DNA of 64,000 nt, taken from an uncultured Rivularia sp. (lineage in GTDB: Bacteria > Cyanobacteriota > Cyanobacteriia > Cyanobacteriales > Nostocaceae). The DNA lies in assembly GCA_963665115.1 (NCBI GenBank), contig OY762007.1:5472001-5536000 (forward strand), given 5' to 3'. The notes below the pieces were generated by a model. The model was not told the DNA's origin, ran no database searches, and was given only the letters and a program-made list of their open reading frames with translations. Shown in pieces: positions 12,435 to 18,016 of this stretch (within the stretch, counting starts at the first letter, position 1; every line of letters begins with the position of its first letter). The translations under genes were made by a program, and so were the position numbers.

Positions 12435-13664
12435 CTACTTGACGATTTTAGAAACTACGCCAGCACCGATAGTACGACCACCTTCACGAATTGCGAAGCG
12501 CATTCCTTGCTCAATCGCAATTGCGTTGATAAGTTGTACGTTCATCTTGATGCGGTCTCCAGGCATTACCATTTCCGCAGCACTGCCATCATCAGCAGTA
12601 AAGGATTGAATAGTGCCAGTTACATCGGTTGTACGCACGTAGAACTGAGGACGATAACCGGAGAAAAATGGGGTTTTACGACCGCCTTCTTTCTCAGTTA
12701 AAACGTATACTTCACCTTCAAATTCGGTATGAGGAGTAATGCTACCGGGCTTTGCAATTACCATGCCACGCTCGATATCATCTTTCTGCATACCGCGTAG
12801 TAGGATTCCGGCATTATCTCCAGCCATACCTTCATCGAGACTCTTCTTGAACATCTCGATACCAGTTACGGTGGTAGGACGAGTATTTCTGATACCAACC
12901 AATTCAACTTGGTCGCCAACTTTGACTTTTCCACGTTCGATTCTACCAGTTGCTACGGTACCACGACCTGTAATGGAGAATACGTCTTCTACTGCCATCA
13001 AGAAAGGCTTATCTACAGCACGTTCGGGAGTAGGAATGAAAGCATCTACCTGTTCCATCAAGTCGTAGATTTTATCTACCCACTGGTCTTCACCTTTCTT
13101 CATGGTGGGGTTAGCAATCATTTTTTCCAACGCTTGCAAACCAGAACCTGAAACTACAGGAATATCGTCACCGGGGAAATCGTAGTCGCTAAGAAGTTCG
13201 CGGACTTCCAATTCCACCAACTCCAATAATTCATCATCATCCACCATGTCTTGCTTGTTCAAGAAGACTACGAGGCTAGGTACACCAACTTGCTTCGCTA
13301 ACAGGATGTGTTCGCGGGTTTGAGGCATGGGACCGTCAGCAGCAGACACCACGAGAATTGCACCGTCCATTTGGGCTGCACCAGTGATCATGTTTTTCAC
13401 ATAGTCAGCGTGTCCGGGACAGTCTACGTGAGCGTAATGACGACCATCAGTTTCATATTCCACGTGGGAAGTATTGATGGTAATACCCCGTGCCTTTTCT
13501 TCAGGAGCGTTGTCAATATCATCGTACTTCTTTTGTGCTGACTGACCCAAAGCGGATAAAGTCATGGTGATGGCTGCTGTCAACGTGGTTTTACCGTGGT
13601 CAACGTGGCCAATAGTACCGATATTAACGTGTGGTTTATTTCTTTCAAATTTTGCGCGTGCCAT
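12435..13664 (-). CDS. tuf: elongation factor Tu
   Basis: [17 protein letters not shown] and NKQD motifs; 409 aa. Confidence 0.99.
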
Positions 13665-13682
13665 GTATCCTCGTTTCCTTTT

Positions 13683-15764
13683 TTAACTATGCGTTCCCTT
13701 GTTTTTCGCGATTATTGCCTCAGCCACGTTGCGAGGCACTTCTTCGTAGTTACTAAACTGCATCGAGAAAATACCCCGACCTTGGGTGTTTGACCGAATG
13801 TCAGTTGCGTAACCAAACATTGCTGCCAATGGAACTTTAGAAGTTACCTTGGCTAAGCCATCTTCGGACTCCATGCCTTCAATTTGACCGCGACGAGAGT
13901 TAAGGTCGCCGATGACATCCCCAAGAAATTCTTCGGGTACTTCTACCTCAACTTCCATCAATGGCTCTAACAGCACTGGTGAAGCTTTCATCACCGCTTC
14001 TTTCATCGCCATTGAACCGGCAATTTTGAAAGCCATTTCCGAAGAGTCTACATCATGATAAGACCCATCAACCAATGTTGCTTTAACATCAATTAACGGA
14101 TACCCAGCTATAATACCGGATTCGCTGGTTTCTTTCATTCCCTGCTCGACGGGATTAATATACTCTTTGGGTATCGAACCACCGACAACCTTGGAAACGA
14201 ATTCAAAACCGCTTCCTTGTTCTCCAGGCTCCAAGTTTACAACTACGTGACCGTATTGACCTTTACCACCGCTTTGACGGATGAATTTACCTTCAATTCC
14301 GTTAACTTGTTTGCGGATGGTTTCGCGATAGGCAACTTGCGGCGCACCAACGTTAGCTTCCACCTTGAATTCTCGCAGCATTCTATCTACCAAAATTTCT
14401 AAGTGTAGTTCGCCCATGCCCGCAATCACTGTTTGATTGGTTTCAGGGTTCACGCTAACTCGGAAGGTTGGATCTTCTTCCGAAAGTGACTGCAATGCTC
14501 TACCTAACTTCTCCATATCAACTTTGGTTTTGGGTTCAACCGCAACTGATATTACTGGTTCTGGAATATAAAGCGATTCCAGAATTATTGGAGAATTCTG
14601 TTCGCAAAGGGTGTCACCTGTAAGAGTATCTTTTAGACCTACAGTAGCTCCTAAGTCCCCCGCAGAAAGTTGTTCGACATCTTGCCGGTCATCTGCCTTC
14701 ATCACTACCAAGCGAGAAATTCGTTCTTTTTTCCCTTTGGTAGAGTTGTAGACGTAGCTGCCTTTCTTCAGCACGCCAGAGTAAACCCGGATAAATGTCA
14801 AACGACCGTAGGGATCGGCCATCACTTTGAAAGCAAGAGCAGCTAAAGGTGCTTCATCGTCAGCAGGTCTTTCAACGGTTTCACCATTGGGTAAGGTGCC
14901 TTGAATTGGAGGTACTTCCAATGGAGATGGCAAATAATCTACCACTCCATCAAGCAATAGCTGTACGCCTTTATTTTTGAATGCCGAACCGCAAAGCATC
15001 GGCACCATAGTTCCGGCAATTGTACCTTTACGTAAAGCAAGACGAACTTCCTCTTCGGTAAGCTCTTCGCCCTCGAAGTACTTAGTCATTAAGTCATCCG
15101 AGGTTTCAGCTACTGCTTCAACGAGCTTAGTACGATATTCGTTAGCAAGTTCAACCATTTCACTTGGTATATCTTGCTCTTCGATATCAGTGCCTTGATC
15201 GTTGTTATAAATAAAGGCACGCATTTTCACCAAGTCAATAATGCCGCTAAACTCGCTTTCGCTACCTATAGGCAATTGAACGGGAATGGCATTAGTTCGC
15301 AGGCGATCGCGTACTTGTTCGTAAACCTTATAAAAGTTTGCGCCAGTGCGATCCATCTTGTTAACAAAGATGATTCTGGGCACATGATAGCGGTCTGCTT
15401 GCCGCCAAACCGTCTCTGTCTGAGGCTGCACGCCGCCTACAGAACATAAAACCGTAATTACACCATCCAATACCCGCATAGAACGTTCAACTTCCATCGT
15501 GAAGTCCACATGACCGGGGGTATCGATGATATTAATTTGATGGTCTTTCCAACTGGTACTAATTGCAGCGGCGGTGATAGTAATTCCCCGCTCCCGTTCT
15601 TGTGCCATCCAGTCGGTCACAGCCGTTCCCTCGTGAACTTCACCTATTTTGTGAATGATGCCGGAGTAAAACAGTATTCTTTCTGTTGTTGTAGTTTTTC
15701 CCGCATCAATATGGGCCGCAATACCCATATTGCGAACTTTTTCTAGCGGGTTGGTACGTGCCAA
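13683..15764 (-). CDS. fusA: elongation factor G
   Basis: [17 protein letters not shown] and NKMD motifs; likely TTG start at 15764, preceded by AGGAGG. Confidence 0.98.
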
Positions 15765-15913
15765 AAGCAGCCTCCTATGGCTTTTGCCTCTTGATATCTT
15801 GTATATTACACTCTGCTTTAAGTTTCTATACTGACGAACCCAAAACCGTCCGACTTTACAGTAATAAAGATGATATAACACCGATTCAATTCGGCAATAT
15901 ATCTGTCTTCAAC

Positions 15914-16384
15914 TTAATAACGATAATGTGCAAAGGCTTTATTGGCTTCTGCCATCCGATGTGTTTCTTCCCGTTTGCGAATTGCGCTACCTGTTTCGTT
16001 AGACGCATCCATTAATTCGTTTGCCAGCCTGCTTGCCATTGTCCGGCCCGGACGCTGACGAGAATACTGCACTAACCAACGCAGTGCAAGGGTCGTACCC
16101 CTTTCCGAACGTACTTCCATTGGTACTTGATAAGTTGCTCCACCAACTCGTCGAGCTTTGACTTCTACCAGTGGAGTCAGATTGCGTATTGCTCTCTCAA
16201 AAACTTCTGTGGGTTCTCCACCAGTTCTTTCTTCGATAATTTTCATTGCGTCATAAACAATCCGCGCGGCAAGAGATTTCTTGCCATGACGCATGATTCG
16301 CCTGATTGTCATACTAATCAAGCGACTGTTGTAAACTGAGTCAGGCGGAACTGCGCGCCTTTGAATAACACCACGACGAGACAT
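15914..16384 (-). CDS. rpsG: 30S ribosomal protein S7
   Basis: MSRR...[10 protein letters not shown]...[15 protein letters not shown]. Confidence 0.99.
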
Positions 16385-17023
16385 ACTTAACCTTTAATTC
16401 AATATAGCAACTACAAAGAAATGCTTTGATACTTCCGGGAATTATATAGTATGAATTCTCCTGCTTCATTTATGAGCTACGAACAACATTATTAATTGCA
16501 ACTCGGTTTTCGGATATGCCCTTACGCTCATAAATTAACGTCGGAATACTGCTCGCGATTGAGATTTTAAGCGAGCAAGATTCATTATTAGAATCTATAC
16601 TACCCAGATTAACCGCTCAAAAAATTTAAGTTGCTGTGGACTTTCTCAACTTTATCAGTATACAGATAACGCCCCGAATAGTTGAAAAACCGCTCCAACC
16701 ATACATATGAAGCGCCATCGTTTATACGTTGATATTTAAACGGAAATCCTGCGCCATAAAATGTTTTGGGCTTTTTCTAACGTCTATCCCTTGTGCTTCA
16801 TGCAATCCCTGGGTGGTGCAGTTGTTTTCCTTGCTGATTTGATGGCTTCCACTTGGGTTCGCAGACCAAAAGCAACACCTTAGAAAACAACTACAGCCCA
16901 CCCACAAGGATAAACTTGAAACACATCGCCCGCGTTTTGGGTAGCTGTAGACTTTTAGAACTTGAATTATATACAAACATCGCAAGTGAATCTAAAAAAC
17001 AATGCGAAAAACCACAGCGACGA
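16385..17023 (-). ncRNA. putative large structured RNA in the rpsL-rpsG spacer
   Basis: Long imperfect hairpin at 16783-16913 whose mismatches are G-U pairs on the minus strand, a 10-bp perfect helix (16468-16477 with 16526-16535), further hairpins, and no credible ORF. Confidence 0.55.
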
Positions 17024-17404
17024 TTACGATGCTTCCTTCGGACGCTTCGTTCCGTACTTTGAACGACCTTGCTTGCGATCTTTTACTCCGGCAGTATCCA
17101 GAGTTCCACGAATAATGTGATATCTCACGCCCGGTAAATCCTTAACCCTACCGCCACGAATCATCACAACAGAGTGTTCCTGTAAGTTGTGACCAATTCC
17201 TGGAATGTAAGCAGTTACCTCGAATCCAGAAGTTAATCTTACCCTTGCAACTTTTCTTAGGGCAGAATTCGGTTTCTTAGGCGTTGTTGTATAAACCCTG
17301 GTACAAACGCCCCGTCTTTGAGGGCATTGCTTCAGAGCCGGGGACTTGGTTTTCTGACGCGCTTTAGAGCGCTCGTTACGAATTAATTGCTGTATTGTTG
17401 GCAT
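17024..17404 (-). CDS. rpsL: 30S ribosomal protein S12
   Basis: MPTIQQLIR...[17 protein letters not shown]...[12 protein letters not shown]. Confidence 0.99.
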
Positions 17405-17530
17405 GAGTTACAGCACGTGAAGCTGCTGATTGTCTAAGTTTTTACAAATCCTGATTATATCTCTTTTTTGAAAAGATTATGTCAACTTTCTAGAAAAAAT
17501 TTAGATTTTTTTAATATATATTTTTTTTAA

Positions 17531-17686
17531 TTGGGGATTGGAAATTGGGAATTGGGGATTGGGAATTGGGAATTGGGGAGTAAAGCGTTGATGGGGAAGA
17601 CAATAAGGGAGCAAGATGCTCCCACTACAAATGTTTTTAGAACTAACTTCTAACTCCTAACTCCTAACTCCTAACTCCTAACTCCT
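17531..17686. repeat. STRR arrays (GGGRATT)n and (CTAACTC)n flanking a single REP-like half element
   Basis: Heptamer arrays at 17531-17579 and 17641-17686, with GGGAGCAAGATGCTCCCACTAC at ~17607-17628. Confidence 0.85.
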
Positions 17687-18016
17687 CACTGAAAAAGAGT
17701 TGCCACAACCGCAAACGGTTACTGCTTGGGGGTTATAGAAGCGAAAGCCTCCACCCATGAGGTCTTCGGAGTATTCGATGGTTAAGTCTTGAGTGCGTTC
17801 TAGGGTTTCGGCATCTAGAACTACTTGTATATTTTTACAGGCGAAAACGCGATCGCAATCTGTTAGTGCTTGTTCGTCTTTAAAAGACATATCGTAAAAC
17901 CAACCGGAGCAACCACCGGGTTTGACAGTTAATCGAAATAACAGGTTGGGTTGTTTTTGTTTTGATTTTAATCTCTGTATCTCGTCTGCTGCTGCCTGAG
18001 AAAGTTTAATCATCAA
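17678..18016 (-). CDS. HesB/IscA family iron-sulfur cluster carrier
   Basis: GGCSG and C-terminal CGCGNSF motifs. Confidence 0.92.
   Translation of the reverse strand: MMIKLSQAAADEIQRLKSKQKQPNLLFRLTVKPGGCSGWFYDMSFKDEQALTDCDRVFACKNIQVVLDAETLERTQDLTIEYSEDLMGGGFRFYNPQAVTVCGCGNSFSVRS

What the first reader, a model, noticed from the sequence alone, without database searches (positions are those of the whole stretch)
16385..17023. Unusually long (~640 nt), densely base-paired spacer between rpsL and rpsG
Seen on the transcribed (minus) strand: UAUCCUUGUG pairs with CACAAGGGAUA. Inside that, UGGGUGG pairs with CCACCCA, and a 14-bp UGUAGUUGUUUUCU/GGAAAACAACUGCA helix has G-U as its only non-Watson-Crick pairs, capped by UUGCU/AGCAA (16783-16913). 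Other stems are AUUUAUGAGC/GCUCAUAAAU (16468-16535), UGCUCGC/GCGAGCA and AGAUUC/GAAUCU. The strand-specific G-U pattern argues for selection on RNA structure rather than a DNA palindrome. Established: the much shorter E. coli rpsL-rpsG spacer is the S7 autoregulatory site. Inference: this is a large cis-regulatory RNA or a processed ncRNA in the str operon.
Basis: partly seen in the sequence, partly recalled or inferred. Interest (0 to 1): 0.7.

Follow-up and report, generated by a model that had tools for sequence, protein, structure and literature searches.

The report
Folded rpsG leader with internal promoters
The 639-base gap between two ribosomal protein genes of this cyanobacterium is single-copy, non-coding and shared across its genus; it is predicted to fold as several long RNA helices and likely holds internal promoters that would let the S7, EF-G and EF-Tu genes be transcribed apart from S12, which makes it a likely control region of the operon rather than a stand-alone RNA.

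Summary
In detail: a 639-nt, single-copy rpsL-rpsG spacer with no conserved ORF and no Rfam match, whose helices fold better on the transcribed strand. It aligns in 23 of 26 other genomes of the genus (527-978 nt). It is the long end of a family-wide expansion (80 spacers, median 404 nt, 26 at least 500), not unique.

Column-wise covariation was not significant and the G-U argument is weak. One long-range helix beside the rpsG ribosome-binding site shows two compensatory series.

The strongest signal is promoter-like. A sense-strand TATAAT lies in 73 of 80 family spacers (antisense 7; other cyanobacteria 4 of 42) at two nearly exclusive positions. This genus keeps TATACT in a near-invariant block and TATAAT/TACAAT/TATGAT at -62.

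Best reading: internal promoter(s) plus a structured rpsG leader; no start site was mapped. S7 feedback is untested and no 16S mimicry was found. A processed ncRNA is unlikely, since nearly every domain is lost in some species. The scan had no earlier finding on this element.

The parts
17024..17404 (-). rpsL (S12), 126 aa, first gene of the str operon
   Evidence: gene name recognised from the translation
17454..17459 (-). TATAAT box of the likely main rpsL promoter (predicted start about 17447)
   Evidence: conserved upstream in relatives; contig X10-11 ends at 17444 (run kind not on record, weak hint)
16385..17023 (-). rpsL-rpsG spacer, 639 nt, single copy, no conserved ORF, no Rfam match
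16980..17007 (-). P1, hairpin just after the rpsL stop; predicted by the genus consensus, weak in this genome's own ensemble
   Evidence: mean P 0.89; P 0.01-0.02 in G000
16962..16969 (-). P0 5' arm, complementary to 16395-16402; would close the whole spacer next to the rpsG ribosome-binding site; no compensatory change seen, not found in 6 of 25 spacers
16806..16910 (-).
16637..16750 (-). D3, best-conserved long irregular hairpin (34 pairs, 97.6% of cells paired, changes mostly G-U swaps)
16694..16752 (-). D3 5' arm, likely homologous to the family-wide upstream module that carries the far TATAAT box; here one base shorter and without that box
   Evidence: reciprocal profile searches
16644..16663 (-). 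near-invariant block (19-mer exact in 23 of 26 genus spacers) holding a TATACT -10-like box at 16662-16657; predicted start G at 16650
16630..16635 (-). P4a 5' arm; pairs with 16406-16411 about 220 nt away; two compensatory series
16434..16608 (-). inner D4 domain: long-range helix 16608-16595/16449-16434 enclosing hairpins at 16596-16578, 16577-16550 and 16535-16468 (P6; deleted in some species)
16441..16446 (-). second -10-like box 62 nt before the rpsG start (TATAAT 17, TACAAT 4, TATGAT 2, none 2 of 25); predicted start A at 16434
16406..16411 (-). P4a 3' arm; its GUUGC core is also in the family consensus about 27 nt before the rpsG start
16391..16402 (-). P0 3' arm and Shine-Dalgarno-like AAAGG of rpsG
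15914..16384 (-). rpsG (S7), 156 aa; followed by fusA, tufA, rpsJ
   Evidence: gene names recognised from the translations

Best explanation
The spacer is likely a cis-acting control region of the str operon: it likely holds one or two internal sigma-70-type promoters that would transcribe rpsG-fusA-tufA-rpsJ without rpsL, embedded in a predicted multi-helix mRNA leader that would pair with the stretch just upstream of the rpsG ribosome-binding site. Shown: position, single copy, conservation, the strand-specific boxes and the compensatory changes in helix P4a. Inferred: the boxes are working promoters with starts at about 16650 and 16434. A transcript from 16650 would carry the whole P4a-closed domain as a roughly 265-nt leader, while read-through from the rpsL promoter would also form rods D2 and D3. 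Those rods probably serve mRNA folding, stability or processing and are accessory, since species lose them. The genus-specific length comes from expanding and re-pairing a shorter family-wide module.
For: Sense-strand TATAAT in 33 of 35 first-sample family spacers (shuffle mean 10, maximum 17) and 40 of 45 held-out ones (antisense 5; shuffle mean 13.8, maximum 21); pooled 73 of 80 against 7 antisense and 4 of 42 other cyanobacteria. Two homologous sites, near (-37 to -41) and far (about -110 to -270): near 41, far 37, both 6, either 72 of 80; supported branches force 2-3 changes of state. Where the far box has decayed the neighbouring sequence is kept. At the near site positions 2 and 6 are the best kept (52 and 54 of 58), and the base 7 nt downstream is G or A in 60 of 81 boxes. 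In the genus the -62 variants keep T-A-n-n-n-T in 23 of 25, and the TATACT core is in 25 of 26. P4a keeps all six pairs in 23 of 25 spacers, with A-U, G-U and G-C states at one pair and C-G, U-G and U-A at another, the G-C state in four genomes not used to predict the structure. Consensus folds are strand-specific in the genus and the family (-7.9 against -2.0 antisense, 0 of 99 shuffles as low). Nostoc PCC 7120 table rows: rps7 rises 5.9-fold and rps12 2.2-fold over 21 h without nitrogen (PMC3141674). RNA-library contigs of relatives bridge rpsL, the spacer and rpsG.
Against: No start site was mapped: no table that I could reach lists one in this spacer. The Nostoc 7120 assembly gives one unit, rpsL to rpsJ, with one listed start (PMC10287535). 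The consensus scanner finds no -35/-10 pair on the transcribed strand of the spacer. A 20-nt invariant block is longer than a promoter needs. G023 has deleted it and 2 of 25 lack the -62 box. Kin share the boxes, so counts overstate independence. Whole-structure pair retention was not above expectation: 46 of 158 against 53; 95 of 279 against 89, p 0.21, and D3 13 of 30 against 9.8, p 0.11. Top mutual-information pairs in the family alignment were mostly non-pairing. P4a is only 6 bp, has P about 0.3 in this genome's own ensemble, and its 5' arm was placed by hand in two genomes. Predicted opening energies of the rpsG site differ little between transcript forms. The 7120 numbers rest on 130-795 reads, and processing would explain them as well.
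Confidence: 0.55

Rival explanations
1. The fold is an S7-responsive translational operator: free S7 binds a helix junction in the spacer and shuts off rpsG and coupled fusA translation, as in E. coli. This could coexist with the promoters.
For: Same position as the E. coli operator, and S7 mRNA/16S similarity was reported in Anacystis (both from passages of PMC3616713; the 1989 paper itself is not held). P4a and P0 lie 11-28 nt before the start codon.
Against: Local alignment of 6 genus spacers to the host's own 16S 3' domain scored no better than shuffles (p 0.42-0.92). The E. coli motifs listed in PMC3616713 are not kept as a set: G000 has no [AU]GUAA and lacks UUGGR at the D3 base. In E. 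coli S7 represses only translation coupled to rpsL (PMC10931766 passage), which an internal promoter would bypass. Mimicry can be structural only, so this does not exclude binding.
Confidence: 0.2
2. The long rods D2 and D3 are double-strand ribonuclease (RNase III-type) or RNase E processing signals that split rpsL from the downstream cistrons and set their relative stability; the AU-rich boxes are cleavage determinants rather than promoters.
For: Rods of about 25-45 pairs recur in lineages only 51-63% identical in D2 (z of -3 or lower in 8 of 17 spacers, in 3 of 5 deep lineages), while randomly mutated copies reach that in 8 of 180. A hairpin follows the rpsL stop in the genus consensus. The 7120 rps7/rps12 ratio shift fits this too.
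Against: D2 is degraded in the four-sequence G026 clade and replaced in G008, G012 and G020. A perfect hexamer with T-A-n-n-n-T tolerance and a fixed 7-nt offset to a purine fits a promoter better (recalled sigma-70 geometry). Post-stop folding strength is not special: 77 of 80 against 353 of 400 random windows.
Confidence: 0.13
3. Most of the length is neutral filler in a genome with long gaps; folding is a by-product and only the ribosome-binding region matters.
For: 450 of 3946 co-directional gaps in this genome are 600 nt or longer and 7 of 45 tested fold as well. Spacer identity (0.71-0.95) is near fourfold-site identity (0.62-0.95). Insertions of about 300 nt are tolerated in 3 of 22 genomes. 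Column tests were not significant.
Against: A 19-mer exact in 23 of 26 spacers, strand-specific boxes in 73 of 80, the P4a compensations and family-wide alignability of the last 270 nt need selection.
Confidence: 0.08
4. The spacer encodes a discrete, processed non-coding RNA or ribozyme with its own function.
For: Large multi-domain predicted fold; no Rfam family explains it.
Against: Domains are lost piecemeal: D2 and the D3 5' arm (G008, G012, G020), upper D3 with the invariant block (G023), the lower D3 3' arm and P4a arm (G002), P6 (G012, G020, partly G005). The D3 model finds nothing outside this locus or genus: 0 of 137 genomes of other genera. No RNA contig isolates the spacer, although contigs cannot show ends.
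Confidence: 0.04

Closest known systems
E. coli S7 translational operator of the str operon (rpsL-rpsG intercistronic RNA; passages of PMC3616713 and PMC10931766)
   Same: Same genomic slot; predicted helices reach the region before the rpsG ribosome-binding site; operon co-transcribed.
   Different: 96 nt in E. coli against 639; no shared motif set or 16S mimicry found; likely internal promoters here. PMC3616713 says the E. coli structure is not obviously conserved elsewhere, although nearly a third of bacteria have an extended gap.
Cyanobacterial S7 mRNA/16S similarity in Anacystis nidulans (Meng, Shinozaki and Sugiura 1989; seen only as a citation and a one-sentence summary in PMC3616713)
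   Same: Structured rpsL-rpsG region in a cyanobacterium.
   Different: Unicellular cyanobacterial spacers sampled here are short (42-77 nt in three Synechococcus/Cyanobium loci) and lack the boxes; no 16S similarity detected in this genus.
Internal promoters of str operons (two inside E. coli fus for tufA, PMC10931766; light-inducible starts at and inside sll1098/fus in Synechocystis, PMC6800327; passages)
   Same: Likely the same logic: extra transcription of downstream elongation-factor genes.
   Different: Those lie downstream of rpsG, and in Synechocystis rps12 and rps7 transcripts stayed level together; here the boxes sit before rpsG and alternate between two sites across one family.
Ribosomal leader RNAs (L10, S1, rplA and rplC leaders in cyanobacteria; PMC12873609, PMC7247131, PMC2662882 passages)
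   Same: Clade-restricted structured RNA before a ribosomal protein gene.
   Different: No rpsG or rpsL element is named in the main texts searched. The supplements and database of PMC12873609 were not seen and may list it. Covariation here is weaker than for accepted leaders.

Membership tests
S7 translational operator (E. coli type) | lies between rpsL and rpsG on a co-transcribed mRNA | tested here: met
   bridging contigs, (a contig shows no single transcript); Nostoc 7120 unit TU02915
S7 translational operator (E. coli type) | sequence mimicry of the 16S rRNA S7 site or the E. coli motif set (UGUAA/UGAAU; CCA/UUGGA junction) | tested here: not met
   structure-only mimicry is not excluded (my loop-E scan failed its 16S positive control)
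S7 translational operator (E. coli type) | binds S7 and represses coupled rpsG translation | not testable with these tools
   needs binding and reporter assays
Rfam RNA families | match at gathering score | tested here: not met
   window; 20 related loci; Rfam also misses the E. coli operator, so absence says little
sigma-70-type internal promoter | strand-specific conserved TANNNT box with a purine about 7 nt downstream | tested here: met
sigma-70-type internal promoter | -35 hexamer or extended -10 | tested here: not met
   many cyanobacterial promoters lack a -35 (recalled)
sigma-70-type internal promoter | mapped primary 5' end | tested here: inconclusive
   no usable start-site table or raw reads reached
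conserved structured RNA motif (CMfinder/R-scape standard) | consensus fold better than shuffles and than the other strand | tested here: met
conserved structured RNA motif (CMfinder/R-scape standard) | statistically significant covariation | tested here: inconclusive
   not significant; D3 exceeds tree-blind shuffles on three of five measures; P4a has two compensatory series; R-scape not available
mobile repeat or MITE | multiple copies in the genome | tested here: not met
   one copy by blastn and nhmmer; the family profile finds no other copy
small protein gene | ORF conserved in frame across relatives | tested here: not met
   ORFs of 30 aa or more differ in start, frame and length across 26 spacers

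The most novel reading that the evidence does not exclude
This cyanobacterial family has rewired the str operon: an internal promoter that alternates between two homologous sites frees S7, EF-G and EF-Tu from S12, and this genus has rebuilt the module into a roughly 270-nt leader that senses S7 without primary-sequence mimicry of 16S rRNA, while the full-length mRNA folds a different rod over the same invariant block, giving two transcript-specific structures from one sequence.
Probability: 0.12. Interest if true: 0.65.

Novelty: new member of a known kind. Interest (0 to 1): 0.38.

Why it matters
How the str operon is controlled outside Gammaproteobacteria is open: PMC3616713 notes extended rpsL-rpsG gaps in nearly a third of bacteria without the E. 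coli structure. A family-wide internal promoter with a defined leader gives exact, cheap targets (two predicted start sites, one compensating helix) that existing Nostoc dRNA-seq data could confirm. It would also offer a route by which these cyanobacteria raise S7 and elongation factors apart from S12. The parts, an internal promoter and a ribosomal-operon leader, are known kinds, so this is a useful new instance and not a new class.

Tried and rejected
Multicopy repeat: rejected. Small ORF: rejected. Rfam, including intron, ribozyme and leader families: only chance hits, best E 1.7. Intrinsic terminator: the scanner's one hit in the spacer (16916-16895) lies inside the D2 5' arm and was not taken further.

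16S mimicry: negative. My loop-E scan failed on its 16S control and is discarded. Pair-retention tests on extant sequences were not significant; the null is biased upward, since slid and antisense controls also fall below it. Default RNAalifold gives no consensus for D2. Family mutual information was dominated by non-pairing columns. The tree-based count of substitutions at paired sites was left out, so covariation significance stays open.

The P0 column was off by one base and is replaced. The rpsL-upstream identities were mis-anchored for three genomes and are not used.

Metagenome pattern scan: 2 of 12 loci were this element, the rest unrelated matches. The genome-contig scan returned mostly distant bacteria and served only as a length background. 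The pattern search was uninformative. RNA runs were contigs only, so no ends or levels; a gap in cover over D2 in X2-X4 reflects divergence (a contig joins across it in X3 and X4).

Literature: ten searches found no description of this element; four papers were not held.

Full report
Setting. The stretch lies on the minus strand between rpsL (17024-17404) and rpsG (15914-16384), followed by fusA, tufA and rpsJ (gene names recognised from the translations). It is single-copy in the 8.69-Mb genome, has no Rfam match and no ORF conserved across relatives.

Observation. The named helices are present, except that the outer pairing needs a bulge, is outcompeted (P 0.06 or less) and exists in 4 of 26 genus spacers. 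Folding beats shuffles (z -3.5 sense, -2.4 antisense), but 7 of 45 random co-directional gaps of like length fold as well. The G-U argument is weak, because slid controls also favour G-U on this G/U-rich strand.

Distribution. BLAST-level matches are in 23 of 26 other genomes of the genus and, apart from one unrelated 30-nt hit, in 0 of 34 others. Lengths: genus 527-978 (22 of 22, median 641); other genera of the family 155-1022 (80 of 80 loci fetched, median 404, 26 at least 500); other cyanobacteria 42-551 (42, median 217); non-cyanobacteria at most 269 (69 of 71). The 80 are the 35 best RpsG matches returned as loci plus 45 that I picked, mostly one per further genus, from the 149 family genomes with a match. 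Coordinates in two supplements imply about 499 nt in Nostoc PCC 7120; I did not see that sequence. The spacer is therefore the long end of a family trait.

Structure. Seventeen collinear sequences were used; 9 of 26 were left out for large insertions or replacements, partial length or near-duplication. They give a consensus of a post-stop hairpin (P1), a possible closing helix (P0), two rods (D2, D3) and a 3' domain closed by P4a. Consensus energy is -34.0 against -13.4 antisense and -15.2 +/- 3.5 for column shuffles (0 of 99).

D2 keeps z of -3 or lower in 8 of 17 sequences, including three of five deep lineages at 51-63% identity, whereas 8 of 180 randomly mutated copies do. It is degraded in one clade and has no default consensus. 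D3 has z of -3 or lower in 11 of 17 and 97.6% of cells paired, with 2 pairs changed on both sides. P4a keeps six of six pairs in 23 of 25 spacers, with two wobble-bridged compensatory series, one reaching its end state in genomes held out of the prediction.

Against this, pair retention was not above expectation in two tests and family-level mutual information showed nothing. Selection on RNA structure is thus moderately supported and not proven. Domains are dispensable: D2 and half of D3 are replaced in G008, G012 and G020, upper D3 is deleted in G023, P6 is lost in G012 and G020, and G002, G022 and G024 carry about 300-nt insertions. That argues against a discrete ncRNA.

Promoter-like signal. 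The best-conserved sequence is a block at 16644-16663 (19-mer exact in 23 of 26) containing TATACT. A second box 62 nt before rpsG reads TATAAT, TACAAT or TATGAT in 23 of 25. In other genera of the family a sense TATAAT occurred in 33 of 35 first-sample spacers and, as a held-out test, in 40 of 45 (antisense 5; shuffles 13.8, maximum 21), against 4 of 42 in other cyanobacteria. It sits at a near or a far homologous site, rarely both (41, 37, both 6 of 80). The tree forces at least 2-3 changes of state, so kinship inflates any test of this.

The last 270 nt of 69 family spacers (those of 300-620 nt) align and have a strand-specific consensus fold. Reciprocal profiles link the D3 5' arm to the far module. 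The family profile hits the same place in many genus spacers (best E 5e-4, G000 0.17) and none of the non-family spacers. The D3 profile hits 24 of 80 family spacers at E up to 10 (best 0.004), against 2 of 80 shuffles and 2 of 95 others. Each hit is weak; the shared position is the evidence. The structure-aware D3 model finds only this genus, consistent with re-pairing of an inherited module.

Expression. Metatranscriptome contigs of relatives bridge rpsL, the spacer and rpsG in two studies (X1; X3/X4). A contig identical to the window (X10, kind not on record) runs 13164-17444 and ends by the predicted rpsL start. Contigs give no ends or levels. Nostoc 7120 has one assembled unit with one listed start (PMC10287535), which does not show an internal start. 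Its rps7/rps12 RPKM ratio moves from 0.5 to 1.3 over nitrogen step-down (PMC3141674), a weak hint of uncoupling. No start-site table covering the spacer was reachable.

Mechanism. Most likely (0.55), internal sigma-70-type promoter(s) at about 16650 and 16434 feed rpsG-fusA-tufA-rpsJ, and the P4a-closed domain acts as the leader that pairs just upstream of the ribosome-binding site; promoter activity and any effect on translation are inferred. S7 feedback (0.2) is possible, but no 16S mimicry or E. coli motif set was found; Rfam's silence is uninformative since it misses the E. coli operator too. Processing (0.13), neutral filler (0.08) and a discrete ncRNA (0.04) follow.

Literature seen. Passages only: PMC3616713 (with its reference list), PMC2704228, PMC10931766, PMC6800327, PMC12873609, PMC2662882, PMC7247131, PMC4734099. 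Supplement rows: PMC10287535, PMC3141674. Supplement searches without relevant hits: PMC4734099, PMC5580265, PMC3610870. File list only: PMC13283749. Supplement unreadable: PMC10939160. Not held: Meng 1989, Mitschke 2011, Robert 2001. Ten searches found no account of this element. The unseen supplements and database of PMC12873609, a CMfinder screen of 202 cyanobacterial genomes, could list it, and the unseen Mitschke table could confirm or refute the promoters. The scan's own notes hold nothing on this element.

Verdict. A real, clade-specific control region of a known kind, with a testable internal-promoter twist; interest 0.38.

Noticed in passing
L092:948-1154 (G002 spacer): A HEARO-like RNA remnant (full-length model match, 27.9 bits, E 0.013, below the gathering score of 83) is inserted inside the near-invariant block, right after the TATACT box plus 7 nt, at the predicted start site. 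No long ORF follows. The flank resembles an IscB-type target motif (recalled).
   Followed up: partly
L062, L103, L104 (G012, G020, G008 spacers): D2 and the D3 5' arm are replaced by about 200 nt of GC-richer, hairpin-dense sequence whose end resembles an IS200/IS605 terminus (recalled). No Rfam hit and no copy elsewhere in G000.
   Followed up: partly
L093, L094 (G022, G024 spacers): About 300-nt insertion in the 3' domain of unknown origin; no Rfam hit, no copy elsewhere in G000.
   Followed up: partly
L091, L090, L100, L089 (G003, G007, G016, G013): These share a changed stretch at the top of D3 that G000, G009 and G001 lack, which does not follow the tree; possibly recombination within the genus.
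   Followed up: no
family spacers, first 60 nt after the rpsL stop: A palindromic GATTAATC-type hairpin motif is present in 51 of 80 spacers of other genera; by eye its 5' arm is also complementary to the motif that follows both TATAAT boxes.
   Followed up: partly
window 17530-17690: Two short tandem heptamer repeat arrays lie between the iscA-like gene and the rpsL promoter; they attract many unrelated contigs.
   Followed up: no
window 15760-15913: The rpsG-fusA gap is conserved in the genus; fusA appears to start at a TTG or GTG after an AGGAGG site, well downstream of the 732-aa ORF call; G026 has a shorter version.
   Followed up: no
G000:C1:133414-133449: One other place in the genome matches the TATAAT-plus-GTCGCC pattern, with no long ORF downstream in the three frames read; probably chance.
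   Followed up: partly
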